Source of the DNA: Alphaproteobacteria bacterium
GTDB lineage: Bacteria > Pseudomonadota > Alphaproteobacteria > Rhizobiales > JAJRRF01
NCBI GenBank assembly: GCA_024279735.1
Contig: JAJRRF010000087.1
Location: forward strand, 1-26,519
Direction: 5' to 3'
DNA length: 26,519 nt
A program made the translations under genes and the position numbers. The notes under the pieces were generated by a model that searched no databases, was not told the origin of the DNA, and saw only the letters and a program-made list of their open reading frames with translations. Shown here piece by piece: positions 428-24,980 of this stretch (its first letter is position 1; each line of letters begins with the position of its first letter).

Positions 428-2008
428 ATGCCAGAAATTCAAAAAAATCTCGATGTTTTCAAGTCTGTTATCATTAAAGAAAATGAGATTGGCCTACTGA
501 TGGAAAATGGTCAGTTTAAAAAAATATTGCAGCCTGGAAAATACACGTTCTGGAGTTTGAGGGCAGAACGCAAGGTTCATATTTTAGATACATTTTCAAC
601 AGAACTCGCAGAGTTTTGGGCTGTGATCTTGCTCAAAAAGAGGCCTGCTGAGGCTGCGAAATTGTTTGAGGTGGTTGAGACAGGGGCAGACCAAATTGCC
701 TTGCTCTATCAGGATAACAAACCAGTCATGTTACTCAAGCCCTGGCAAAAAAAATATTTCTGGAAGATGCGCCACACGATTGATGTGGAATATATTTCCA
801 TCCAGACAGGTAAGGTTCTGTCTGAAGAGTACCGTACTGTCATGGAACAAATAAGACCTGAAAGCATGGTTGTCTCCCAGACAATAGGAGCTTCCCATAT
901 TGGATTGATGTATATTGATGACCAGTTTGACAGGGTGCTGTATCCTGGTGTCTATAGCTTTTGGAAGAATGAGGGGAAAATCTCATTTGAGCGTTATGAC
1001 TGTCTTAACAGAGCCAGCAATGGATTGCTTGAAAAACAGGCCAAGGAATTATTGGCTCATGCCCCAGACGAAGCCGACAAGCTGCTAGAAGTTGTCACTA
1101 CAAAAGAAAGCCAAGTGGCTGTTGTCTCTTGGGATGAGAAGCCCTTTTTAGTATTGAAACCGTGGCAGACCAAATATTATTTCAAAAAGCTTTCTAATGT
1201 CCATGTTGACTATATTACCATTGCCACAGGTCAAGAAGTGCCCAAGGAGTATCGCGCTGTTTTGGAAAAGCTCGATACAGGCCAGTTGGTACAGTCTTTG
1301 ACAATAGCGCATTTCCACACTGGTCTGATGTTTGTCGATGGCAAACTGGTGCGGGAACTGAAGCCCGGGGCCTATAGCTTTTGGCAAAATGAGGGGCAGG
1401 TTGCCTTCCAGATCATTGATTTGCGGCCACAGCAGCTTGAGGTTACAGCCCAGGAAATTTTGACCAAGGACAAGATTTCCCTGCGTGTCACCCTGTCTGC
1501 CTTTATGACGGTGCGGGATGCCTGCAAGACAGTAGAATCCTCTGTTGACCATAACGAGCATCTTTACCGCCTGGTTCAGTTTGCTGTGCGTGAGGCTGTG
1601 GGCAACCGTAGCCTGGATGAGGTCTTGGGCAGCCGCGAAAAGGTTGACAGCCAGATCGTGAATCATGTCCGTGAACATATGGGTGATATTGGTATCAGCT
1701 TGGAGGGGCTGGGCATTAAGGACATTATCCTACCTGGTGAGATGCGTGACATGCTCAACAAGGTGGTGATGGCCGAAAAGACTGCCCAGGCCAATTTGAT
1801 CCGCCGCCGCGAGGAAACAGCAGCAACTCGGTCCTTGCTCAATACTGCCAAGTTGATGGACGGCAGCCCGACCCTGATGCGGCTGAAGGAGCTGGAAACT
1901 CTGGAAAAGCTGACCGAAAAGGTTGGCCGCATCGACCTTCACGCAGGCGACAAGGGCGGCCTGGACGCGCTACTCTCTGGGTTGCTGAAAAGTGAGAAGA
2001 GTGAGTAG
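428..2008 (+). CDS. SPFH/band-7 (stomatin/flotillin-like) domain protein with triplicated N-terminal repeat region and C-terminal coiled coil. It has no predicted TM segment.
   Basis: The C-terminal about 180 aa (LRVTLSAFMTVRD...LGIKDIILPGEMRDMLNKVVMAEKTAQANLIRRREETAA...) matches the SPFH core. The N-terminal beta-hairpin motif PGxYxFW recurs at residues about 36, 173 and 313. Confidence 0.85.
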   Translation: MPEIQKNLDVFKSVIIKENEIGLLMENGQFKKILQPGKYTFWSLRAERKVHILDTFSTELAEFWAVILLKKRPAEAAKLFEVVETGADQIALLYQDNKPVMLLKPWQKKYFWKMRHTIDVEYISIQTGKVLSEEYRTVMEQIRPESMVVSQTIGASHIGLMYIDDQFDRVLYPGVYSFWKNEGKISFERYDCLNRASNGLLEKQAKELLAHAPDEADKLLEVVTTKESQVAVVSWDEKPFLVLKPWQTKYYFKKLSNVHVDYITIATGQEVPKEYRAVLEKLDTGQLVQSLTIAHFHTGLMFVDGKLVRELKPGAYSFWQNEGQVAFQIIDLRPQQLEVTAQEILTKDKISLRVTLSAFMTVRDACKTVESSVDHNEHLYRLVQFAVREAVGNRSLDEVLGSREKVDSQIVNHVREHMGDIGISLEGLGIKDIILPGEMRDMLNKVVMAEKTAQANLIRRREETAATRSLLNTAKLMDGSPTLMRLKELETLEKLTEKVGRIDLHAGDKGGLDALLSGLLKSEKSE

Positions 2009-2017
2009 GGGCTAACC

Positions 2018-2048
2018 ACTGTCATCCCGAAGAAATGCGGGATGATAG
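2018..2048. repeat. REP-like hairpin GTCATCCCG-aagaaat-GCGGGATGA, terminator-like, directly after the SPFH stop
   Basis: Stem of 8/9 bp with a 7-nt loop. The same motif recurs at 20205-20237 and inverted at 20318-20352. Confidence 0.5.
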
Positions 2049-2081
2049 TAATGGGGGCATTAGGCTTGCTTTAAAGTTGCA

Positions 2082-2188
2082 CTAGAGCATAGTGCGAGCA
2101 AATCGAATCGACTTAACTGGTTAAAGTATGTGACCAATTAAGAATCTAGGGCAACCTCTTGACCATGTTTAAATGCAGGTTGCTCTAG
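2082..2188. repeat. MITE-like dispersed repeat, copy A (about 107 bp), with terminal inverted repeats CTAGAGCA...TGCTCTAG
   Basis: Shares GCATAGTGCGAGCAAATCG at the 5' end and GCAGGTTGCTCTAG at the 3' end with copies at 14024-14126 and 24679-24784. Confidence 0.7.
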
Positions 2189-2221
2189 ACCAGTTGGTCT
2201 AATTGTTGTATAGCTTGCCAA

Positions 2222-3151
2222 ATGCAAACAATACTCTCAATCAAGAACCTGACCAAGACTTATGGTGAGGACTTTACTGCCCTGAACGATGTATCCCTTG
2301 AGATCAGGAAGGGCGAAATCTTTGCCCTGCTTGGGCCAAACGGGGCAGGTAAGACCACCTTAATCAGCACGATTTGCGGTATTGTCAATCCAAGTGGCGG
2401 CACTGTTACGGTGGATGGCCATGACATTATCACAAACTACCGCGCTGCCCGCGCCATGATTGGTCTTGTGCCGCAAGAACTCACGACTGACAGTTTTGAA
2501 ACGGTCTGGGATACGGTCAGTTTTACACGCGGCCTGTTTGGCAAAAAGCGTGATAACGCGCTGGTCAGCAAGATTTTAAAAGACCTCTCGCTGTATGACA
2601 AGAAAGACAACAAGATCATGACGCTGTCTGGCGGCATGAAACGCCGCGTCCTGATTGCCAAGGCCCTGTCGCATGAACCAAGGATATTATTCCTGGATGA
2701 GCCGACAGCCGGGGTGGATGTCGAGCTGCGCAAGGACATGTGGGCGGTGGTGCGCGGCTTGCAGCAAAGCGGGGTGACCATCATCCTGACCACCCACTAT
2801 ATTGAGGAAGCCGAGGAAATGGCTGACCGAGTGGGCATTATCAGCAAGGGCGAGATTATCCTGGTGGAGGACAAGGCCACCCTGATGGCCAAGCTGGGCA
2901 AGAAGCATTTGACGCTGGAACTGTGTGAAAAGCTGGAGACTGTTCCAGACACCCTGAAAGGCTATGACCTGTCCCTGTCAGACGACGGTTTTTCGCTGGT
3001 TTACCAATATGATAGCACTGGCAAGACGACTGGTATTACTGGCCTGCTCGACAAGCTAAAGGGCGAAAACATCGCCTTCCGCGACCTCAGCACAGGCCAA
3101 CGTTCCCTGGAAGATATTTTTGTGGGGCTGGTGAAGGGGGGAGAGGGATGA
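2222..3151 (+). CDS. yadG: ABC transporter ATP-binding protein, ABC-2 exporter type (YadG-like)
   Basis: Walker [12 protein letters not shown], signature LSGGMKRRV, Walker [13 protein letters not shown] and H-loop TTHY are all present. The overall layout matches E. coli YadG. Confidence 0.9.
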
Positions 3152-3435
3152 CAGGCCAGAAAACGGCTGAACTCATCAAGGTTGTGGATGAAATGACTGT
3201 TTTGCTGAAACAGCATAGTGAAGAAAACTGGGTAAGCTGGATGGGGCAGGTCTCTGCCCGCCTTAAAAATTCGGACTATTCAGGAATAGAAAAGCTGCTG
3301 GGGGCGTATGGCGGCATGGGGTCTTTTAATGATTTCGTGTTGATTGCGAAGCCCTCAGCCAATGAACAGCTCAATGTCTTGAGGCATAAGGCTTGGCAAC
3401 TGGCGACTGATATAAAGCGGGATTATACTGGTTGA
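3148..3435 (+). CDS. small hypothetical protein (95 aa) inserted between the ABC ATPase and permease genes
   Basis: ATGA start/stop overlap with yadG. A strong SD GGGGGAGAGGG lies 5-8 nt upstream. No recognisable domain. Confidence 0.55.
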
Positions 3436-3455
3436 CATAAATAAAGGCCTTTCTT

Positions 3456-3548
3456 GTCGGTCGACTGCTCTGTAGTTGACTGGAACGTTTTGACACTCAA
3501 GGTTGTTGGGCAGTAACGTTCCAGTTAAGGACAGAGCTCTTAACCGAC
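3456..3548. repeat. 93-bp compound inverted repeat (stems 6+7+10 bp: GTCGGT/ACCGAC, GCTCTGT/ACAGAGC, CTGGAACGTT/AACGTTCCAG) in the yadG-yadH intergenic region
   Basis: Complementarity read directly. Internal TTGAC motifs occur at about 3476 and 3490. Confidence 0.6.
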
Positions 3549-3794
3549 ATGTGGCGACAGGGATTTGGAGAAGCAGAATAATGCGAGGCTATGTCAATAT
3601 TCTCCAAAATTCACTATAACCCCCCATACTTTCCATCGTCATCATCGGGCTTGTCCCGCTGTTCCATGTCTTAAGTTTTGGTCTTGATACAAAGGCTGGT
3701 TATTGTGCTTTACAGTTTAAAAGATGGATAGTTGGAACAAGTCCAACTATGATGTGTGATGAGAAAATTAGGGGCAGGACGGAAAAGGCAAAAT

Positions 3795-4580
3795 ATGAAA
3801 AAATTCAACATGCAGTCTCTTAATATCAGAGGTGTAAAGGCGATTTACCTGTTTGAAATGGCGCGGCTGCGGCGTACCCTGTTCCAGTCGATTGCCTCGC
3901 CTGTGATCTCGACGCTGCTTTATTTTGTGGTGTTTGGCTCGGCGATTGGCTCGCGCATTGAACAGGTGGACGGCATTACCTACGCCCAGTTTATTGTGCC
4001 TGGCCTGCTGATGCTCTCGCTGCTGACCCACAGCACCTCAAATGCCTCGTTCGGGATCTATTTCCCAAAGTTTACAGGGACAATCTATGAGGTTTTGTCC
4101 GCGCCGATTTCTTATTTGGAAATTGTGATGGGATATGTTGGGGCAGCGGCCAGCAAGTCGATTATATTGGGCGTGATTATCCTGGTCACGTCTGCCTTTT
4201 TTGTTGACCTGCAAATAGCGCACCCGTTCTGGATGGTGTTCTTTCTGCTGATGACCTCCATCACCTTTGCCCTGCTTGGATTTATCATTGGTATCTGGGC
4301 GGACAATTTTGAGAAACTCCAGGTGATACCGTTATTGGTGATTACCCCGCTGACCTTTCTTGGTGGCACCTTCTATTCGCTCGACATGCTACCCCCGTTC
4401 TGGCAGACGGTTTCCCTGTTCAATCCTGTGGTCTACCTGATATCGGGTTTTCGCTGGAGTTTTTATGAGATGGCAGATGTCAATATTTCAGTTTCCGTCT
4501 TCATGATCTTCTTTTTCCTGTTTTCCTGCCTGGGCGTGGTATGGTGGATTTTCAGGACAGGCTATAATATCAAGCAGTAG
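3795..4580 (+). CDS. yadH: ABC-2 family transporter permease (YadH-like). Alignment to E. coli YadH suggests the true start is the ATG at 3810 ([10 protein letters not shown]...).
   Basis: Six predicted TM helices. The conserved motifs [21 protein letters not shown] and [11 protein letters not shown] match the YadH family. Confidence 0.85.
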
Positions 4581-4588
4581 GAGGAAAA

Positions 4589-5173
4589 ATGGCTGATTAT
4601 CCCCAATATAGCCTTTGTATTGAAGGTGTGGGATTGCCTTTGGAATGTGTGGAAGTCTTTCTGAAGGCAGAAAATGGGAAAGAAATAACAAGAAATGATA
4701 TGAGGGGGTTTCCTGAGGAGCTTGTGGGTTTTATGGATATCCTAAATGCCAAACTGTTAGACCCAAACTATGTAACCAATAAATTTTTTACAACATCTGT
4801 TTGGGATGGGGAAAAAACAATTGATCAGGGTTTTCATTATCGTTTGATGGGGCGATTTCGGGATATGAATATCGTGATTTTGCAAGCGTTTTTAGCTTGG
4901 GTTTGTCAGTTCAGTGTTAAGAATTCAATGTTGGGAACTATTTTTCAGGAAGGTAGTCTCTCTCCCACTTTAATAATGTCTATAGAGAAAAGGGTTGTCG
5001 AAATATCCTTTGTAGAGCATGAATATCCCCCTAAATTGGAAAAGAGTTGTTGTAATCCTGAGTTCTTGGCATCTGTGATTGATTGGGAGAAAGGGTGGGG
5101 TGAAGTGGAGGTGGGACTGACTGGGAAATCCCTATATTTGAATTACCTTTCTTGGGATGAGATAGTAAAATAA
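4589..5173 (+). CDS. hypothetical protein (194 aa), compositionally AT-richer than neighbours
   Basis: Strong SD AGGAGG 7 nt upstream, 9 nt after the yadH stop. No recognisable family. Confidence 0.6.
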   Translation: MADYPQYSLCIEGVGLPLECVEVFLKAENGKEITRNDMRGFPEELVGFMDILNAKLLDPNYVTNKFFTTSVWDGEKTIDQGFHYRLMGRFRDMNIVILQAFLAWVCQFSVKNSMLGTIFQEGSLSPTLIMSIEKRVVEISFVEHEYPPKLEKSCCNPEFLASVIDWEKGWGEVEVGLTGKSLYLNYLSWDEIVK

Positions 5174-5186
5174 GGGGGAAACAAAA

Positions 5187-5612
5187 ATGTCTGATTGTTG
5201 TGGCGGCGGCAATGCGCAGAAAACTGAACACAATGCACCAACCAAGCGCGCTTGTCCCTCTTGCGGCAAGGATGGCCTTACAGTTCCCTTTGCCACTATG
5301 CTTCATCACCTGAAAACGCCGTGGGCAAACCTGGCCAAGGATCAGCCATATTATTTTTGTGATGATCTGGAGTGTGAAACAGTCTATTTTGGCAGTGACG
5401 GTACTGCGATTGCCAAAGAGGAACTGCGCACGAAAATGCTGGTCAAGGGCGATGCGGATGGCCTCGCCTGTTTCTGTTATGGGGTGAGCGCGGAAGATGC
5501 GGCCGACCCTGCCGTCAAGGCCTTCATTATGGCACAGACCAAGGCCAAGAACTGTGCCTGTGACCGCCGCAACCCGTCAGGCCGCTGTTGCCTGAAATAT
5601 TTCCCGAAGTAG
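5187..5612 (+). CDS. cysteine-rich (14 Cys in 141 aa) putative metal-binding protein with an N-terminal CxxC...CxxxxC zinc-ribbon-like motif and a C-terminal CxC...CxC...CC cluster
   Basis: SD GGGGGA 8 nt upstream. Cys spacing read from the translation. There is no signal peptide. Confidence 0.6.
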   Translation: MSDCCGGGNAQKTEHNAPTKRACPSCGKDGLTVPFATMLHHLKTPWANLAKDQPYYFCDDLECETVYFGSDGTAIAKEELRTKMLVKGDADGLACFCYGVSAEDAADPAVKAFIMAQTKAKNCACDRRNPSGRCCLKYFPK

Positions 5613-5619
5613 CTGTAAT

Positions 5620-5630
5620 CCCCCCCCCCC
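5620..5630. repeat. homopolymeric C11 tract in the convergent intergenic region
   Basis: Read directly from the sequence (aatcCCCCCCCCCCCatttt). Confidence 0.9.
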
Positions 5631-5669
5631 ATTTTAGAGGAAGGCACTTAAAACAAAGGCGGTAAGCCA

Positions 5670-8600
5670 CTAGCTTTTAGGTAGCGGTTGCTGCGGCTGT
5701 TGGGGTGGCACTGGTTCTGGTTTTTTGTAGCCAAAGGGCTTGCCGTCATCACGCAGCACCACATAGATGGCAGGGATAATCAGCACAGTCAGCAAGGTCG
5801 AGGAGATCAGGCCAAACAGCAGTGAGATGGCCAGCCCCTGGAAAATGGGGTCTGTCAGGATGACCACAGCCCCGATCATGGCCGCGACAGCAGTGAGCAG
5901 GATAGGCTTGAAGCGCACCGCGCCAGCCTCTACAACGGTATCACGCAGCGACTTGTCATCGCTTTGGTTATGGCGGATAAAGTCCACCAACAGGATAGAG
6001 TTCCGTACGATAATACCCGCCAACGCAATAAAGCCAATCATGGAGGTGGCGGAGAACGGCGCGCCAAACAACCAGTGTCCATACATGATCCCGATCAGGG
6101 TCAGCGGGACGGGAGTCAGGATCACAAGCGGCAGCTTGAAAGAGCCAAACTGGACAACCACCAGAAAATAAATCCCAAGCAGGGCGACCATGAAGGCCGC
6201 GCCCATATCGCGGAAGGTAACATAGGTCACTTCCCATTCGCCGTCCCAGAGCAGGACAGACTTGCTCTCGTCACTGGGTTGGCCATAATAGCTGATTTCA
6301 GGTTTGGGAAGGTTTTTCCAGTCATGGGCATCAATCGCCTTGGCGACAGCCATCATCCCGTAAATAGGGGCTTCAAACTGTCCCGCCAGTTCAGCCATCA
6401 ACATTTCTGCGTTATGGCCATTATGGCGGAAGATGGGGTAGGAGCTGGTTTCTTTATGCAGTTTGACAATATCACCAAGCTCTACAACTGTTCTTTTTTG
6501 TCCCGGACTGCCTGAAGGTATCTGAGCCATCCGCCGGGAGGGGACAGGGGTTGTCAGGGTACGGCCAGAGACTGAAAGGTCTTTATTGGACATCTTTACA
6601 GCTATCTCTACAGGATGGCGACCTTCGCCTTTATGGGAATAGCCAATACGCACGCCATGAAGATAGGTCTGAACAGTATTGAAGACATCAGCCTCTGAAA
6701 CCTGGTGAAATTCCAGGTTATTCTGGTCAATGGTGAAGCGCAGGCGTTGGGCAGGCGTGCCAAAACTGTCATCCGTATCGACAATAAAGGGGATCTTCTC
6801 AAAGATGCCGCGCAATTCATTGGTGACTGCGCGTCTTGTCTTTGCATCCGGGCCATAAATTTCAGCCAGCAGGGTGGCCATGACGGGTGGCCCGGGGGGA
6901 ACCTCGACAACCTTGAGGGAGCCGCCCTTGGCAATATCCATGCCCTTCAGCAGTTTGCGGGCTTCCAGGGCAATTTGGTGGCTGGTGCGGCTGCGGTGAT
7001 GCTTGGCCGTCAGGTTGATTTTCAGGTCGCCCATTTCCGGCTGGTTACGCAGGTAATAATGGCGCACCAGGCCGTTAAAGTTAAACGGTGCGGCTGTGCC
7101 AGCATAGGACTGGATAGAGAGCAGTTCTGGGATGTTTTTCAGCCTGTCAGCAGCCATGCTCAGGACGCGGTCGGTCTCTTCCATCGTTGAGCCTTCAGGT
7201 AGGTCAAGCACAACCTGGAACTCTGACTTGTTGTCAAACGGCAGCAGTTTGACGGTGACCATATTGAAATAGAACAGGGTCAGTGAGGCAAGGGTGGCTG
7301 CACCCGTCAATAATAGGAAAAGCCAGCTGAAAAAACGATATTTCAGGATAGGGCGGGCGACAGCAGCATAGGCTCTTCCGAGTATGCCGCCATCCTTTTT
7401 CTCAACATGATGCGCACCTTCTTTTGGCCTGGCAAAACGGATCATCAGCCAAGGGGTCAGGATCATGGCGACAAAAAAGGAAAAAATCATGGCAGCTGAG
7501 GCATTGGCAGGGATTGGGGACATATACGGCCCCATCAGGCCAGAGACAAACAGCATAGGCAACAGGGCAGTCACAACAGTCAGGGTGGCAATCACCGTTG
7601 GGTTGCCAACTTCAGCAACTGCTTCAATGGCGGCCTGCTTGTGCGAGCGGCCATCATCCATGCCCCAGTGTCGGGCAATATTTTCAATCACAACAATGGC
7701 ATCGTCCACCAATATCCCGATAGAGAAGATCAGCGCAAACAGCGACACTCTGTTAATGGTAAAGCCCATCATCCAGGAGGCGAACATGGTCAGCAGGATG
7801 GTGGTGGGTATCACAACCAAAACAACGCCGCCCTCGCGCCAGCCAATGACAAAGGCCACCAGGATAACAATAGATATAGTGGCAAGGCCAAGATGGAACA
7901 GTAGCTCATTGGCCTTTTCATTCGCAGTCTCGCCATAGTTACGGGTGACAACGACCTCCACCTCATCAGGGATCAGGCGGCCACGCAATAATTCAGTCTG
8001 TTTTAGGATTTTTTGGCCGATCTCAACCGCGTTTGCCCCAGCCCGTTTGGCAATGGCAATGGAAACAGCTGGCCTTTTCATAAATGTAGTGTTGTCTGTC
8101 TTGTCATGCCCTTCGGTGGCCGTATGGACTGCTTTATGCTGGCTCGCAGTGCCGCTATAGTGCCAGACATAGTTTTTGGAAGGCTCTGCGCCAACAACAA
8201 CATTGGCGACATCCCTGACATAAACAGGCTGTCCCCCACGTGTGGTGAGTAGCAAGAGGCCAATATCCTTGATGCCGCTCAGGGTCTGTCCTGCCAAAAC
8301 AGGGAGGCTCTTATTGTTGCTCCTGATGCGTCCAGCAGTAAAGGAGCGGTTGGCAGCTTTCAGTTTGCCAACAAGCTGGTCGAGGGTCACGCCATAAAGG
8401 GAAAGCCGTTCTGGATCTGGTTCAATCCTGATCTGATCCTTGCGACCACCAACCATATAGGACAGGCCGACATCCGGAAGTTTGGCAATCTCGACCAAAA
8501 GGTCGTTGGCAATATTATAGAGCTGGTTATCTGACCAGCGTTTCGCGGCGTGTGGTTTTGGTGTTAGGGTCAGGGTGACAATGGCAACATCATCAATGCC

Positions 8601-13541: not shown

Positions 13542-14027
13542 ATGCCACAGCTCAATCCCGAATTTTTTGCGCCCCAGTTGATCTGGCTGGCTCTGACCTT
13601 TATTGTGTTCTATTTCATAATGTCTCGTAAGATTGTGCCTCTCATTGGCAATGTCATTGAAAAGCGTGAGGAACGGATCAGTTCAGATCTTAAGAAGGCT
13701 GAAACGCTGAAGAAGGATTTGAGTGAAGCAATTGCCAGTTATGAACAGGCGATTGCGGAGGCCAGAAGCAAGGCGTATGATATTGTTCAGGCAAACCAAA
13801 AGAAGCTTTCTGCTGAAGTGGAGGCCGAACAAAAGCTTGTTGAGGATCAGATAGACCAAAAGACCAAAGATTCAGAGCAGCGGATTGCTGCTGCCAGGGA
13901 TACAGCACTGGCACAGATTAATGATATTGCGGTTGGTACGACCGAAGAAATATTACAGTCTCTGACAGGGTCAAAGCCTTCTGGAGATAAGGTTTTGGAT
14001 GCGATTTCTTCGGTATCTTCATCTTAG
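13542..14027 (+). CDS. atpF2: F0F1 ATP synthase subunit b'
   Basis: Single N-terminal TM followed by a long charged coiled coil. Its position between c and b is typical of alphaproteobacteria. Confidence 0.88.
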   Translation: MPQLNPEFFAPQLIWLALTFIVFYFIMSRKIVPLIGNVIEKREERISSDLKKAETLKKDLSEAIASYEQAIAEARSKAYDIVQANQKKLSAEVEAEQKLVEDQIDQKTKDSEQRIAAARDTALAQINDIAVGTTEEILQSLTGSKPSGDKVLDAISSVSSS

Positions 14028-14126
14028 TGCATAGTGCGAGCAAATCGTTACGATTTGCGGGTTATATGCGCCATCATAGGGGCTAGGCAAGGTCAACTGA
14101 CCGAACCTGCTTGCAGGTTGCTCTAG
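14024..14126. repeat. MITE-like dispersed repeat, copy B (about 103 bp), between atpF2 and atpF. Its 5' end overlaps the atpF2 TAG stop codon.
   Basis: Nearly identical to copy C over about 60 bp. The same TIR termini are present. Confidence 0.7.
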
Positions 14127-16890: not shown

Positions 16891-16921
16891 GGCAGGGTTG
16901 GCCTTTGGTATCTCTCTTTCA

Positions 16922-17041
16922 TTCCCAAGCTCTGGCTTGGGAACGGGGAAATGTTGGTCAACAGTTGTACTGTTGACCAGAACGTTACAGATAAATGCTG
17001 GCTTAATGTTGTAATGTTCCGTTGAAGAGTTCAACTCTTCA
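16922..17041. repeat. three consecutive palindromes downstream of leuC: TTCCCAAGC-tct-GGCTTGGGAA, GGTCAACAGT-tgt-ACTGTTGACC and TTGAAGAGTT-c-AACTCTTCA
   Basis: Read directly from the sequence. None is followed by a U-tract. Confidence 0.6.
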
Positions 17042-17279
17042 CCGACAAGTAATAAAAATCCTCACTTTACCCATAAACTAAATCACCCTGGTAGAATGGC
17101 CATCAGCGAGGGGACAATTTTGAGATCCCTGCGCCCAGAGCCTTGGTTGAGGTTTGTCGGTCTTGGTGATAAGGTGGGGTGGTAAGTGTGGGTAGGTTGC
17201 TTTGGGAAAGCAGGGCTTCCCTTCGGGGGCATTGTCTAAGCAGTGTTTTGTAACAAGAGAGAAGAAACGAAAGTAAAGT

Positions 17280-18110
17280 ATGGAAATAGCATCAAGAAAA
17301 CCAAAAGTATTTATAGCTTCTTCATTAGAGGGAAGAAGTATTGTTGATGCTATTCACGTTAACATAGAACATGAATGTGAAGTCACTCCTTGGTATCATA
17401 GCTTTACACCTTCTAGTAATACCTTAGATGATTTGATTATATCATCTAGTGCTTCTGATTTTGCTTTGTTTGTGTTTCAACCCGATGATCTCACACTTAT
17501 AAGGAGTAAAGCAGAGCCAATGGTTAGAGATAATGTTCTATTTGAAATGGGAATATTTATCGGGACTCTTGGTCGGGAAAGGGTGTTTCTTCTGAAGCCG
17601 TCTCATGAAACATTATGCTTGCCAACTGACTTAGCTGGTTTGATTTATTTGGGATATGAAGCAAATAGAACTGATCAAAATTTAGAAGCAGCCACTAATC
17701 CCGCCTGCTCTAAAATAAAGAAATGTATAAAAGAAAGAGGGGCTTTGAATTTTGGAAATTTTTCAAAAACCAACAAGCAAAGTGTCAATTTTCCTGAATA
17801 TGAACTTGATGAAATAGATTATATTTTCTTGCAGAAATGTTCTGCTAGCCATACTTCCCATCCTGAAGGGTTAACCTTTGAAAGTCTTTCTTTTTCTATT
17901 AATAATAGGAAGAAAGAAGACGCAATAAGAAAATCAGCTCTTAAACTTCACAGAATGAAATGTATTGATCTTAGTATAGAAGTAGAAGACTTCGATATAA
18001 ATGATCCGCCAAGACAAGAGTATTACTATACCATCACAGAAATAGGGATTGATCTATTGTTAAAACACGATTTTTCAAAAAAGACTTTTGACGATGAGAT
18101 TCCATTCTGA
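17280..18110 (+). CDS. TIR-like domain protein (COG4271/PF10137-type 'predicted nucleotide-binding protein containing TIR-like domain') fused to a C-terminal winged-helix-like domain. It is AT-rich and likely horizontally acquired.
   Basis: Motifs KVFIASS, ALFVFQPDD, RDNVLFEMGIFIGTLGRERVFLLKP and PTDLAGLIYL. The first 120 nt are about 33% GC. Confidence 0.8.
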   Translation: MEIASRKPKVFIASSLEGRSIVDAIHVNIEHECEVTPWYHSFTPSSNTLDDLIISSSASDFALFVFQPDDLTLIRSKAEPMVRDNVLFEMGIFIGTLGRERVFLLKPSHETLCLPTDLAGLIYLGYEANRTDQNLEAATNPACSKIKKCIKERGALNFGNFSKTNKQSVNFPEYELDEIDYIFLQKCSASHTSHPEGLTFESLSFSINNRKKEDAIRKSALKLHRMKCIDLSIEVEDFDINDPPRQEYYYTITEIGIDLLLKHDFSKKTFDDEIPF

Positions 18111-18187
18111 TGATGTTGGTCAGGGGCTCTGTCCTATGGGGAATCTCATTCACACAACTATTAAAAAGTGAGTACGGATTCTGTAGG

Positions 18188-18210
18188 GGGGCATCCGTGT
18201 ATGCCCCTTC
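18188..18210 (+). terminator. hairpin GGGGCAT-ccgtgt-ATGCCCC plus TTC, downstream of the TIR-like gene
   Basis: Read directly from the sequence. Confidence 0.4.
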
Positions 18211-18434
18211 TAACGTAACGGGTCTTGGGTGATGTTGGGACGGAATTTGAAGCAACCAGCTGTTTTGACAGGTTATTTTATGAGCCTTTAGCCAGCAGGG
18301 CGGATACATGGATTCGCCCCTACATTGTGTGCCTGTATCCTTATTGGTCGCATACTTTAACCAGACAAGCCGCAGGCGACTTGTCTTCATGATGCTCTAA
18401 CGCCTACAGGCAATAAAACAAGAAAGCCCCTCAA

Positions 18435-19313
18435 ATGTCGATCACGCCTATAGCCCGCCGCCTTACCGCGCCTGATATTGCAAGCCGCAAGAACGGGCAG
18501 CCGATTGTCTCGCTGACAGCCTATCATGCCCATACGGCGGCGATGATTGACCCCTATGTGGACTTTATGCTGGTCGGGGATAGCCTGGGGATGGTGATGC
18601 ACGGCTTTGAAAGCACTGTGCCTGTGCCGCTGGAACTGATGATTATGCACGGCGCGGCGGTGGTGCGCGGCTCTTCCCACGCGTTGGTGGTGGTCGACAT
18701 GCCGTTTGGCTCCTATGAGGAAAGCCCGAACATTGCCTTTCGCAATGCGGCAAGGGTGATGAAGGAAACGGGATGCGGCGCGGTCAAGCTGGAGGGCGGG
18801 GCGCGGATGGCACAGACCATTGACTATCTCACCCAGCGCGGCATTCCGGTGATGGCGCATATCGGCCTGACCCCGCAATCTGTCCATGTCATGGGCGGTT
18901 TCAAGACCCAGGGACGCGAGCAAAGCCAGTGGGCGGCAATTGAGGACGATGCCAGGACGGTGGCAGAGGCTGGCGCGTTTGCTGTTGTGGTTGAGGGGGT
19001 GGCGGAAAAGCTGGCCGACCGACTTACCAAAATGATAGAGATTCCCACCATTGGCATTGGGGCCTCTGCCCAATGTGACGGCCAAATTTTGGTGCTGGAG
19101 GATATGCTTGGCCTCAGCCCGCGTGTGCCTAAATTTGTCAAGGAATTTGCCAGCCTGGGCGCGGCGATAGGGGGCGCGGTTAGTGCCTATTGTGATGAGG
19201 TGCGGGGACGGACATTTCCTGGGAAGGAGCATGTTTACGCAATGAAAAAACAGGCTGGTGCTGTCAGCGGGGATACGAAAGACAGCAAAAAGACTAACAA
19301 ACCGGACAGTTAG
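18435..19313 (+). CDS. panB: 3-methyl-2-oxobutanoate hydroxymethyltransferase
   Basis: PanB motifs (LTAYDA-like [23 protein letters not shown]). Confidence 0.93.
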
Positions 19314-24678: not shown

Positions 24679-24784
24679 CCTAGTGCATAGTGCGAGCAAA
24701 TCGTTACGATTTGCGGGTTAAGATATGCGCCATATAAGGGCTAGAGCAAGGTCGGATGACCGCAATTGCTTGCAATTTGCTCTA
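24679..24784. repeat. MITE-like dispersed repeat, copy C (about 106 bp)
   Basis: CTAGTGCATAGTGCGAGCAAATCGTTACGATTTGCGGG...TTTGCTCTAG. Nearly identical to copy B. Confidence 0.7.
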
Positions 24785-24980
24785 GACCTCCACGAACATT
24801 TGATTTTCCTGAATTATCGACAACAAATCAGATAGAATTAAGGCCATTCAGCGCGACGAATCGTAGCGTGGAAAACAGCAATAATACGCAAGTCTTTATC
24901 ATCTCATGTATTTTTCAGGTTTTACTTCTTGTCTGGACGCTAACTAGCCGATTATACTGGAAAGATAAAGGGAGAAGATT

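What the first reader, a model, noticed from the sequence alone, without database searches (positions are those of the whole stretch)
17280..18110. AT-rich orphan TIR-like (COG4271-type) plus wHTH gene inserted between leuC and panB
The 276-aa product carries the signature motifs of the TIR-like nucleotide-binding family found in Cap12, Pycsar and Thoeris-type antiphage effectors: FAxVLLTPDD-like ALFVFQPDD, RDNVLFEMGIFIGTLGRERVFLLKP and PTDLAGLIY, including the conserved Glu. Its C-terminal about 130 aa looks like a winged helix (LTFESLSFSINNRKKEDAIRKSALKLHRMKCIDL...YYYTITEIGIDLL). The gene is about 33-38% GC against about 50% in the flanking housekeeping genes leuC and panB. It has no partner cyclase or other defense gene within several kb. 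This fits a horizontally acquired single-gene sensor/effector, or an orphan effector of a system encoded elsewhere. I am not aware of a described TIR-like-wHTH fusion family.
Basis: partly seen in the sequence, partly recalled or inferred. Interest (0 to 1): 0.8.

Follow-up and report, generated by a model that had tools for sequence, protein, structure and literature searches.

The report
Solo TIR enzyme with SSB-tail mimic

Summary
An intact 276-aa ORF lies at 17280..18110 (+). It has GC 0.34 and GC3 0.24, against GC3 of 0.38-0.67 in host genes, and sits between leuC and panB in an otherwise housekeeping contig.

The winged helix is acidic in every member (pI 4.1-5.1), so DNA binding is doubtful. 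The protein also ends in FDDEIPF, which exactly matches a documented SSB C-terminal heptad. Of 92 representatives of the C-terminal module, 68 end in xPF (consensus D-[F/M]-D-D-D-I-P-F) after a variable disordered linker.

The gene is absent from panB loci in 81 relatives. Across 51 non-redundant homologue loci no partner gene is conserved. Homologues sit in an integron cassette, at P2-like prophage ends, in Tn7-like islands beside Zorya or R-M systems, and on plasmids beside PD-T7-4.

Best reading: a single-gene, mobile abortive-infection NADase coupled to the SSB interaction network by tail mimicry. The trigger is inferred. This is a new variant of a known kind.

The parts
17280..18110 (+). 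Complete gene for the 276-aa TIR-wHTH-SSB-tip protein, including the stop codon
   Evidence: ORF list. GC 0.339 and GC3 0.242. The identical protein is recorded once, on this contig only.
17304..17660 (+). TIR domain core (residues 9-127), CAP12/Pycsar type. The PADLOC and PDB alignments extend it to about residue 156 (nt 17747).
   Evidence: PF10137 E=2.2e-27. PADLOC TIR effector 2e-44 and PycTIR 5e-34. PDB 7UN8 TIR-STING 8e-17 and 8JSJ PycTIR 8e-16.
17544..17546 (+). Codon for Glu89 in the motif RDNVLFE(89)MG, the putative catalytic glutamate
   Evidence: Invariant in 13 full-length homologues. It aligns with RDNVVFEFG of TIR-STING 7UN8 and RDNVHLEFG of PycTIR 8JSJ. That this Glu is catalytic in those enzymes is from my own knowledge.
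17748..17804 (+). Low-confidence inter-domain linker (residues ~157-175)
   Evidence: pLDDT of about 30 in the full-length model. Poorly conserved columns.
17805..18065 (+). Acidic winged-helix domain (residues ~176-262) with H-H-H-beta-beta-H topology. It contains the conserved S-x-T-S-x-P-x-G loop, the AAIKLERLGY-type helix 3 and an acidic/aromatic wing.
18066..18086 (+). Short flexible linker (residues 263-269, HDFSKKT)
   Evidence: In homologues this linker is 3-37 aa (median 21), rich in K/E/S/N/P/A, and not conserved in sequence. pLDDT 61-66.
18087..18107 (+). C-terminal heptad F-D-D-E-I-P-F, the SSB C-terminal tip (SSB-Ct) mimic
   Evidence: 68 of 92 module representatives end in xPF, with consensus D-[F/M]-D-D-D-I-P-F. 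FDDEIPF, FDDDIPF and LDDEIPF are documented natural SSB heptads (PMC13490951; PMC5872125). The tail of homologue L154 is 17/17 identical to an annotated Vibrio SSB terminus.
17233..18170 (.). Low-GC (0.345) block taken as the acquired segment. It is bracketed by an imperfect 24-nt direct repeat (17209-17232 and 18171-18194, 17/24 matches).
   Evidence: Fine-scale GC. Repeat D1. The repeat is weak: 8 of 200 shuffles reach 17/24. It is listed as a possible boundary only.

Best explanation
The gene encodes a horizontally acquired, self-contained (single-gene) anti-phage or anti-invader abortive-infection protein.

SHOWN: It has three parts. (1) An N-terminal CAP12/Pycsar-clade TIR domain with the catalytic-Glu motif intact. 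(2) An acidic winged-helix domain. (3) A short flexible linker ending in FDDEIPF, an exact copy of the C-terminal tip by which bacterial SSB docks its partner proteins. The wHTH, linker and tip travel together as one conserved module. The family is rare. It lives on mobile elements and in defence islands, and it has no conserved partner gene.

INFERRED by homology: The TIR domain is an NAD+ glycohydrolase that is inactive as a free protomer and becomes active when TIR domains are packed together, as in TIR-STING, PycTIR and PucTIR.

INFERRED, the least certain step: The SSB-tip mimic plugs the enzyme into the SSB interaction network. My preferred version is a decoy. Invader replication or recombination proteins normally capture host SSB tails, for example oligomeric Red-beta/RecT-type annealing proteins, helicases or polymerases. 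These would capture several copies of the bait tail, with the wHTH providing dimerisation or additional recognition. That would cluster the TIR domains, switch on NAD+ depletion and abort the infection.

Sub-confidences: architecture 0.95; defence role 0.7; NADase effector 0.7; tail functions as an SSB-Ct mimic 0.6; decoy trigger specifically about 0.3.
For: - TIR domain: PF10137 E=2e-27; PADLOC TIR effector models 2e-44 to 5e-34; alignment to solved TIR-STING and PycTIR with the RDNV-FE-G motif conserved; E89 invariant in the family.
- Assembly activation of this TIR clade: 10.64898/2026.08.12.744502.
- wHTH fold.
- Tail: 68 of 92 module representatives, and 36 of 51 non-redundant full-length genes, end in xPF. 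Another 7 end in an acidic stretch plus a terminal aromatic residue. This holds despite linkers of 3-37 aa with no sequence conservation.
- The most frequent heptads are FDDDIPF (15), MDDDIPF (6), LDDEIPF (2) and FDDEIPF (2). Three of these are the exact SSB heptads of E. coli, Rhodobacter and Halomonas/Thioclava (PMC13490951).
- The L154 tail is 17/17 identical to an annotated Vibrio SSB end, and it hits annotated ssb genes in 653 plasmid records.
- Phage Red-beta/RecT recognise the last 7 residues of host SSB (10.1101/2020.04.14.041095).
- Single-gene status: no neighbour family occurs in more than 5 of 49 loci, and the V. mimicus homologue is one cassette between attC/VCR repeats.
- Defence or mobile context: Tn7-like islands next to Zorya I, MTase+GmrSD and type I R-M; P2-like prophage ends after gpD/ogr; a plasmid copy adjacent to PD-T7-4.
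- Foreign origin here: GC3 0.24, and absence from 80 + 1 relatives' panB loci.
Against: - Nothing was tested experimentally: no phage protection, NADase activity or tail-partner binding.
- About 15% of non-redundant members lack any tail-like end (8 of 51, one of which is IS-truncated). These include the Vibrio integron-cassette form. So the tip is not indispensable for whatever the core protein does.
- The full-length AF2 model was poor over the TIR half (pLDDT 54.7), so no inter-domain geometry is available.
- The family is not a recognised system in PADLOC 2023, and it is absent from GenBank phage records.
- The decoy trigger is one of several ways an SSB-Ct mimic could act, and no data here discriminate between them.
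- MGE carriage also fits a function that benefits the element itself and not the host.
Confidence: 0.6

Rival explanations
1. DNA-sensing TIR effector built like SSB. The wHTH binds invader DNA or a DNA structure, cooperative binding polymerises the TIR domains, and the acidic tip acts as in SSB: it folds back on the nucleic-acid-binding surface as an autoinhibitor and is released on DNA binding, possibly then recruiting repair enzymes.
For: The fold is that of the MarR/PadR/RosR DNA-binding domains. The order 'folded binding domain, then disordered linker, then acidic tip' copies SSB architecture. Assembly-activated TIRs are the rule in this clade.
Against: In all 13 full-length members examined the wHTH is acidic (net -4 to -9, pI 4.1-5.1). 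Helix 3 is neutral in most members (+5 in the window protein itself) and the wing is acidic and aromatic instead of basic. There is therefore no evident basic surface for DNA or for the acidic tip to dock on. The whole protein has a pI of about 5.
Confidence: 0.15
2. A function that serves the mobile element and not host immunity. The protein competes with SSB for SSB-interacting enzymes (ExoI, RecJ, RecQ, RecO, UDG and others) to protect or establish incoming element DNA, or to exclude rival elements. The TIR domain would provide a regulatory or toxin activity.
For: The family is carried by conjugative and other plasmids, P2-like prophages, Tn7-like elements and integrons. An exposed SSB-Ct peptide is in principle a competitive inhibitor of SSB-partner interactions (PMC5872125 abstract).
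Against: The immediate neighbours are defence systems (Zorya, R-M, GmrSD, PD-T7-4) and not anti-defence or leading-region genes. The catalytic Glu is invariant, and the nearest characterised homologues are suicide NADases. A stoichiometric competitor would not need an enzyme domain. The copy studied here is chromosomal with no recognisable element around it.
Confidence: 0.1
3. Ordinary regulator. The wHTH is a transcription factor and the TIR-like domain is a nucleotide-binding sensor, as in the database name 'nucleotide-binding protein'. There is no immune role.
For: The wHTH fold is that of transcription regulators. Sources name homologues 'nucleotide-binding protein'.
Against: The wHTH is acidic. 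The gene has no conserved target or neighbour operon, is patchily distributed on mobile elements, is absent from relatives, conserves the catalytic Glu, and carries an SSB-docking tip that a repressor has no known use for.
Confidence: 0.07
4. Orphan effector of a CBASS, Pycsar or Thoeris-type signalling system encoded elsewhere in the genome and activated by a diffusible nucleotide.
For: The TIR domain belongs to the clade used by CBASS Cap12 and Pycsar PycTIR effectors. The rest of this genome is not available.
Against: The non-TIR domain is a wHTH, not a STING, SAVED or cNMP-binding domain. The Cap12 equivalog models score 91 and 60 bits against cut-offs of 450, and only over the TIR part. 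No cyclase or ThsA-like gene is found in any of 49 homologue neighbourhoods. One homologue is a single-gene integron cassette.
Confidence: 0.05

Closest known systems
CBASS Cap12 (TIR-STING; PDB 7UN8, 9LMQ)
   Same: Homologous N-terminal PF10137 TIR domain in the same position (query residues 7-131 align to residues 10-132 of 7UN8, E=8e-17). The RDNV-FE-G catalytic-Glu motif is shared, and both are two-domain effectors of about 300 aa. By inference it likely shares the NADase chemistry and assembly-dependent activation.
   Different: The C-terminal domain is an acidic wHTH plus SSB-tip, not a c-di-GMP-binding STING domain. The NCBIfam equivalog cut-off is missed by a wide margin (91 against 450 bits). 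There is no CD-NTase operon here or in homologue loci.
Pycsar PycTIR / Pucsar PucTIR (PDB 8JSJ)
   Same: Same TIR clade (E=8e-16; PADLOC PycTIR 5e-34), with filament-activated NADase as the mechanistic precedent.
   Different: In PycTIR the TIR domain is C-terminal to a cNMP-binding domain (the match is to residues 156-304 of the chain). Here it is N-terminal, there is no cNMP-binding domain and no cyclase gene.
Bacterial SSB (C-terminal tip, SSB-Ct)
   Same: Identical terminal heptad (FDDEIPF here; FDDDIPF and LDDEIPF in homologues). It is preceded by a variable low-complexity linker and follows a folded domain.
   Different: There is no OB fold and no basic ssDNA-binding surface. The folded domains are an acidic wHTH and a TIR enzyme. 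The protein mimics the SSB docking motif and is not an SSB homologue.
MarR/PadR/RosR winged-helix regulators
   Different: No sequence-level family membership (no Pfam or NCBIfam hit; 11-15% identity). It is acidic where these regulators have a basic DNA-contact surface. It is fused to an enzyme and an SSB tip.
Defence systems that monitor phage SSB or ssDNA (DARNA). From my own knowledge and not checked here, retron Eco8 and others.
   Same: Conceptually similar: immunity keyed to the ssDNA/SSB replication-recombination machinery of the invader (10.64898/2026.02.22.705581).
   Different: Those systems sense the phage SSB or SSB-coated ssDNA. Here the immune protein itself displays the host-type SSB tail, which would report on proteins that bind SSB tails. 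The proteins are unrelated and use a different effector (tRNA cleavage against a TIR domain).

Membership tests
Pfam PF10137 CAP12/Pycsar-effector TIR domain (COG4271-type) | Score above the curated gathering threshold over the full domain | tested here: met
   95.8 bits against a cut-off of 24.7, E=2.2e-27, profile positions 1-118 of 119.
Pfam PF10137 CAP12/Pycsar-effector TIR domain (COG4271-type) | Conserved catalytic glutamate in the (R)DNV-FE-G motif | tested here: met
   E89 is invariant in 13 homologues and aligned with the same motif in 7UN8, 9LMQ and 8JSJ.
Pfam PF10137 CAP12/Pycsar-effector TIR domain (COG4271-type) | NAD+ glycohydrolase activity on oligomerisation | not testable with these tools
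   Requires enzyme assays. Inferred from homologues.
CBASS Cap12 (TIR-STING) effector | NCBIfam equivalog score at or above the cut-off, covering both domains | tested here: not met
   NF050172 scores 91.3 bits against 450 and NF050171 scores 60.1 against 450. Only model positions 1-154 (the TIR part) match.
CBASS Cap12 (TIR-STING) effector | C-terminal STING cyclic-dinucleotide-binding domain | tested here: not met
   The confident domain model (pLDDT 83.5) matches wHTH regulators and not STING.
CBASS Cap12 (TIR-STING) effector | Encoded in an operon with a CD-NTase | tested here: not met
   No nucleotidyltransferase in the 26.5 kb contig. No conserved neighbour in 49 homologue loci.
Pycsar PycTIR effector | N-terminal cyclic-nucleotide-binding domain followed by the TIR domain, next to a pyrimidine cyclase | tested here: not met
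   Only the TIR part of the PycTIR models or chain aligns (PADLOC positions 148-286 of 288; 8JSJ residues 156-304). The TIR domain starts at residue 6 of this protein, and there is no cyclase.
Thoeris (ThsB TIR + ThsA) | ThsB-type TIR (PF08937) with an adjacent ThsA or other signal-responsive effector | tested here: not met
   PF10137 is the only Pfam hit at E<=0.1. No conserved adjacent effector.
Winged helix-turn-helix (MarR/PadR-like fold) | Three-helix bundle plus beta-hairpin wing topology with significant structural similarity | tested here: met
Winged helix-turn-helix (MarR/PadR-like fold) | Basic recognition helix and wing compatible with DNA binding | tested here: not met
   Domain net charge -4 to -9 and pI 4.1-5.1 in all 13 members. 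Wing net charge -1 to -5. Electrostatics only; no binding assay was possible.
SSB C-terminal tip (SSB-Ct) short linear motif | Acidic residues followed by I/V/L-P-F at the extreme C-terminus, after a disordered linker | tested here: met
   FDDEIPF-stop here. 68 of 92 module representatives end in xPF, with consensus D-[F/M]-D-D-D-I-P-F and a linker of 3-37 aa. Exact identity with the published SSB heptads FDDEIPF, FDDDIPF and LDDEIPF. 17/17 identity of the L154 tail to an annotated SSB end.
SSB C-terminal tip (SSB-Ct) short linear motif | Binds the SSB-Ct pockets of SSB-interacting proteins | not testable with these tools
   Needs peptide-binding assays or complex prediction.
Bacterial SSB family | OB-fold ssDNA-binding domain | tested here: not met
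   No SSB or OB Pfam hit. The folded domains are TIR and wHTH.
Horizontally acquired island gene | Atypical composition and absence from the orthologous locus of relatives | tested here: met
   GC3 0.24 against 0.38-0.67. No homologue within 6 kb of panB in 80 Hyphomicrobiales-type genomes, nor in the closest relative, whose PanB is 90% identical.
Horizontally acquired island gene | Recognisable mobility signatures at the borders (integrase, tRNA, target-site duplication, attC) | tested here: inconclusive
   No tRNA, no gene remnants or dispersed repeats in the flanks, no Rfam hit. There is only a weak 17/24 bracketing direct repeat, reached by 8 of 200 shuffles.

The most novel reading that the evidence does not exclude
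This family would be an immune 'tail decoy'. The effector displays a copy of the host SSB docking peptide as bait, so that any invader protein evolved to grab host SSB tails (annealing recombinases, helicases, polymerases, nucleases) unavoidably captures and clusters a suicide NADase. The bait heptad tracks the SSB-tip flavour of the host lineage: DDEIPF in this alphaproteobacterium and DDDIPF in most members, whose named hosts are mostly gammaproteobacteria. That would be a bacterial short-linear-motif analogue of the integrated decoys of plant NLRs, and a new way of sensing infection through an essential, hard-to-mutate host-virus interface.
Probability: 0.3. Interest if true: 0.85.

Novelty: new variant of a known kind. 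Interest (0 to 1): 0.68.

Why it matters
TIR NADases are a central, conserved arm of immunity in bacteria, plants and animals. The open question for each new one is what switches it on. Here the sensor half is not a second-messenger receptor. It is a small acidic winged helix ending in an exact copy of the SSB C-terminal tip, the peptide through which many replication, repair and recombination proteins, and phage recombinases, dock onto SSB.

If the tip works as it does in SSB, this is a compact (~830 bp) single-gene system that links immunity directly to the SSB interactome. It is easy to test by tail deletion, tail swaps, E89A and pull-downs. It could reveal which invader proteins depend on host SSB tails. 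It could also supply a portable module (wHTH, linker and tip) for recruiting proteins to that network.

The work also adds a rare, mobile family (92 clusters at 50% identity among 1.84 billion representative proteins) to the catalogue of candidate defence genes carried by integron cassettes, P2-like prophage ends and Tn7-like islands.

Tried and rejected
1. C-terminus as a STING, SAVED or cNMP sensor: rejected by the fold search and by the NCBIfam and PADLOC coverage.
2. Conventional DNA-binding wHTH: made doubtful by electrostatics.
3. A conserved partner gene: clustering 250 neighbouring ORFs across 49 loci found none. The DUF6471 gene and the ~374-aa Ig-domain gene recur only in three related Tn7-like loci, have no PADLOC hits, and are absent from the window.
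4. A clean insertion into a conserved leuC-panB junction: rejected, because no relative has leuC within 6 kb of panB.
5. Mobility signatures at the borders: no tRNA, integrase remnant, attC-like site, dispersed repeat, Rfam family or significant RNA structure. The promoter and terminator scan was no better than shuffles.
6. PDB sequence search with a 27-aa tail: no hits, as the query is too short. It was replaced by tblastn against annotated plasmids, which worked.
7. Full-length AF2 model: poor over the TIR domain (pLDDT 54.7), so it was not used for fold search or domain packing.
8. The afdb50 fold library was unavailable.
9. Homology between this wHTH and the C-terminal domain of a second Vibrio TIR group (P0015-P0020): hhalign probability 0.3%, so not demonstrable.
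10. GenBank phage genomes: no homologue. PHROGs gave only a TIR-fragment hit to a family of unknown function.
11. Literature: ten searches found no description of a TIR-wHTH-SSB-tip protein or of an SSB-Ct mimic in defence. The library is incomplete, so this is absence of evidence only.
Full report
**1. The observation**

Its GC is 0.339 and its GC3 is 0.242. The neighbours leuC (0.545/0.589) and panB (0.582/0.669), and ten other genes of the contig, have GC3 between 0.38 and 0.67. The low-GC block coincides with the ORF to within about 50 nt.

The flanking genes are an aconitase-family 476-aa protein of LeuC type and PanB. The rest of the 26.5 kb window appears to be the whole contig. It encodes SPFH, ABC and RND transporters, the F0 ATP synthase cluster with b and b' subunits, rplS, a TPR_21 protein, a histidine phosphatase, a FabI-like reductase, PdxH and similar genes. 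There is no cyclase and no known defence gene.

**2. The N-terminal domain**

Residues 9-127 match Pfam PF10137 (CAP12/Pycsar effector TIR domain) end to end, with E=2.2e-27 and 95.8 bits against a cut-off of 24.7. PADLOC's TIR effector models match at 2e-44 to 8e-35 and PycTIR at 5e-34, always over the TIR part only. NCBIfam's two Cap12 (TIR-STING) equivalogs reach 91 and 60 bits against cut-offs of 450, again only over the TIR part.

Against solved structures, the domain aligns with TIR-STING 7UN8 (8e-17), Cap12 9LMQ (5e-16) and PycTIR 8JSJ (8e-16). The motif RDNVLFE89MG lies on RDNVVFEFG and RDNVHLEFG. E89 is invariant among 13 full-length homologues. The protein is therefore a member of the PF10137 TIR clade but not a Cap12 or a PycTIR.

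**3. The C-terminal domain**

No library (Pfam, NCBIfam, PADLOC, PHROGs) matches residues ~160-276. A full-length AlphaFold model was poor over the TIR half (mean pLDDT 54.7) but confident for residues 175-262. A domain-only model built on 17 sequences reached pLDDT 83.5 and pTM 0.71, with the order helix, helix, helix, strand, strand, helix.

The domain is acidic in every full-length member: net charge -4 to -9, pI 4.1-5.1, an acidic/aromatic wing such as IETDDQDGYDYYSY, and a helix 3 that is neutral in most members (+5 in the window protein). That is not what a DNA-contacting wHTH looks like, so I do not assume DNA binding.

**4. The tail**

Aligning the homologues showed that most end in ...D-D-[DE]-I-P-F. 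I built a profile of the C-terminal module and searched every representative of about 15 billion proteins. Only 92 clusters (at 50% identity) among 1.84 billion match.

- 68 of the 92 end in x-P-F. Many of the remainder are gene fragments.
- The counts for the last eight positions give D-[F/M]-D-D-D-I-P-F.
- The stretch between the last helix and this tip is 3-37 residues (median 21), rich in K/E/S/N/P/A, and not conserved.
- In 78 full-length genes from metagenomes, viral contigs, plasmids and genomes (51 groups at 85% identity), 30 groups have a canonical acidic-[IVL]PF end, 6 another xPF, 7 an acidic stretch with a terminal aromatic, and 8 none, one of them IS-truncated.

DDDIPF is the conserved SSB C-terminal hexapeptide through which SSB binds its partner proteins (PMC5872125). 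Published natural SSB heptads are FDDDIPF (E. coli), LDDEIPF (Rhodobacter, found in 5,795 alphaproteobacterial assemblies) and FDDEIPF (Halomonas and the alphaproteobacterium Thioclava) (PMC13490951). The family's commonest heptad is FDDDIPF (15 cases). LDDEIPF and FDDEIPF each occur twice.

The window protein ends in FDDEIPF, the DDE flavour found in Alphaproteobacteria, which is the host's class. The 32-residue tail of one homologue (L154) hits the 3' ends of annotated ssb genes in 653 plasmid records and is 17/17 identical to a Vibrio maritimus SSB terminus. The tip is therefore a genuine, selected mimic of the SSB docking motif, and 'folded domain, then disordered linker, then acidic tip' copies SSB architecture without an OB fold.

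A minority of module-bearing proteins (7 representatives starting CFVIQPFD...) carry a different N-terminal domain, divergent and similar to nucleoside 2-deoxyribosyltransferase or TIR, at sub-threshold scores. So the wHTH-linker-tip unit behaves as a module.

**5. Is it foreign, and is it alone?**

The PanB sequence places the host among Hyphomicrobiales-type alphaproteobacteria, with best matches at 77-82% identity. In 80 such genomes panB stays linked to the downstream TPR_21 gene, but none has leuC or a homologue of this protein within 6 kb upstream. Neither spacer has DNA similarity to them.

A closer relative whose PanB is 90% identical (GCA_054001935.1) also lacks the gene and has other genes upstream. 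DNA homology with the window begins only inside panB, at 18456. The gene therefore lies at a lineage-specific synteny breakpoint. With GC3 0.24 this makes horizontal acquisition the only reasonable reading.

The mechanism of insertion is not recoverable. There is no tRNA, integrase remnant, attC-like site, dispersed repeat or Rfam family, and only a weak bracketing direct repeat (17/24 matches, reached by 8 of 200 shuffles).

Across 49 homologue loci with flanks I clustered 250 neighbouring ORFs. No family recurs in more than five loci. The contexts are:
- The five-locus family and its companions are P2-type late genes (GpD, GpU, tape measure, Ogr). There the gene sits convergently at the prophage end.
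- Three loci are Tn7-like elements (TnsA/B/C, TniQ) where the gene is followed by Zorya type I, an EcoRI-type methylase plus GmrSD, or a type I R-M system.
- In Vibrio mimicus VM603 the gene is a single cassette between VCR/attC repeats of the chromosomal integron.
- On plasmids it occurs in conjugative pAQU2, next to PD-T7-4 in Spartinivicinus ruber pB, and IS30-truncated in Pseudomonas fragi.

This is the signature of a self-sufficient, mobile, defence-associated gene.

**6. Mechanism**

What is shown is the architecture, the conservation of the catalytic Glu and of the SSB-tip mimic, the acidity of the wHTH, the lack of a partner gene, and the mobile or defence context.

What follows from established knowledge is this. 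PF10137-clade TIR domains (TIR-STING, PycTIR, PucTIR) are NAD+ glycohydrolases that become active only when ligand-driven assembly packs TIR domains into filaments (10.64898/2026.08.12.744502). SSB tips bind pockets on many genome-maintenance proteins. Phage Red-beta/RecT annealing proteins specifically read the last seven residues of host SSB (10.1101/2020.04.14.041095).

My inference is that this protein is an abortive-infection NADase whose tail ties it to the SSB interactome. The version I favour is a decoy. Oligomeric invader proteins that must seize host SSB tails also seize several bait tails, clustering the TIR domains and triggering NAD+ depletion. The wHTH would supply dimerisation or a second recognition surface. 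Its invariant S-x-T-S-x-P-x-G loop, R225 and Y250 are candidate contact residues.

I give the general statement about 0.6 and the decoy trigger about 0.3. Rivals are listed separately: an SSB-like DNA sensor with an autoinhibitory tip (weakened by the acidity), an element-serving competitor of SSB interactions, a plain regulator, and an orphan cyclic-nucleotide effector (essentially excluded).

The main caveats are these. Nothing has been tested experimentally. About 15% of non-redundant members lack any tail-like end, so the tip modulates the core activity and does not define it. I could not model complexes.

**7. Comparison with what is known, and novelty**

The effector half is a known kind (Cap12/PycTIR-clade TIR). 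The protein fails the defining tests for Cap12, PycTIR and Thoeris membership: domain content, equivalog score and operon partner.

The sensor half has no family in Pfam 2025, NCBIfam 2026, PADLOC 2023 or PHROGs. Ten full-text searches found no paper describing a TIR-wHTH-SSB-tip protein or an SSB-Ct mimic in an immune effector. The recent systematic TIR survey deals with multi-gene Thoeris-type signalling systems. The integron-cassette defence preprint does not mention TIR. The library is incomplete, so this is not proof of novelty.

I classify the finding as a new variant of a known kind. It is a single-gene TIR effector with a previously undescribed sensor or targeting module. Its SSB-tail mimicry would surprise a specialist and is directly testable.

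Noticed in passing
window 14018-14126, 24681-24785, 2083-2130 (partial); L194 4708-4821: A dispersed intergenic repeat of about 110 nt (83-87% identical copies). It has internal palindromes (GCAAATCGTTACGATTTGC, CCTGCTTGCAGG). It is also present upstream of panB in the closest relative, GCA_054001935.1. It looks like a REP or MITE-type element of this lineage. It is not present in the flanks of the TIR gene.
   Followed up: partly
window 16891-17279: leuC is not followed by leuD. The 389-nt spacer after leuC holds two near-perfect hairpins (16955-16979, 11-bp stem; 17020-17044, 12-bp stem) without T-runs. No relative has leuC near panB, so this is a lineage-specific rearrangement point.
   Followed up: partly
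L154 2317-3183 (metagenome contig MDTG01146251.1): This homologue's last 17 residues (KPQYNEPPMDFDDDIPF) are identical to the C-terminus of an annotated Vibrio maritimus SSB. That suggests recent recombination with, or very tight convergence on, a host ssb tail.
   Followed up: partly
P0107, P0110, P0112, P0115, P0116, P0122, P0128 (exhaustive-search representatives): The same wHTH-linker-SSB-tip module is fused to a different N-terminal domain (CFVIQPFD... start). That domain has only sub-threshold similarity to nucleoside 2-deoxyribosyltransferase and PF10137. The module therefore combines with more than one putative N-glycosidase-type effector.
   Followed up: partly
L087 10001-10435 (Candidatus Nitrosoglobus, JBRDZU010000026.1): A 144-aa wHTH-linker-EFDDEIPF protein without a TIR domain begins with residues homologous to the end of the TIR domain. 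It lies 170 bp downstream of a uracil-DNA glycosylase gene, and from my own knowledge UDG is an SSB-tip-binding enzyme in E. coli. It could be a remnant or a stand-alone module.
   Followed up: no
L093 (Spartinivicinus ruber plasmid pB, NZ_CP048880.1) 1866-8502: The homologue sits directly upstream of a PD-T7-4 defence gene and about 3 kb downstream of a lambda-exonuclease/RecT pair. Its tail is degenerate (...SYDEASFL). It is tempting to link tail loss to co-residence with an SSB-tail-binding recombinase, but this is a single case.
   Followed up: no
L001 8314-12185, L003 8239-12003, L086 8425-12245: Three Tn7-like elements share a conserved block: tnsA, then a divergent DUF6471 gene, then the TIR-wHTH-tip gene, then a convergent ~374-aa putative Ig-domain protein. 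This is followed by different defence systems (Zorya I, methylase+GmrSD, type I R-M). The block lies on the tnsA side, where cargo is not usually expected.
   Followed up: partly
L175, L179, L180, L183, L124 (IMG/VR and metagenome contigs): In P2-like prophages the gene lies convergently just after gpD/ogr, at the very end of the predicted viral contig. That position is a candidate moron or defence hotspot at the prophage end.
   Followed up: partly
P0015-P0020 (Vibrio, Aliivibrio; 250-254 aa): A second group of solo PF10137 TIR proteins has a different C-terminal domain of about 95 aa. It has a wHTH-like sequence pattern, no SSB tip, and no detectable profile similarity to the module studied here (hhalign probability 0.3%).
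   Followed up: partly
window 18034-18390 (-): A 118-aa ORF on the opposite strand overlaps the 3' end of the TIR gene and the downstream spacer. It was not searched against any library or analysed further and is probably spurious.
   Followed up: no
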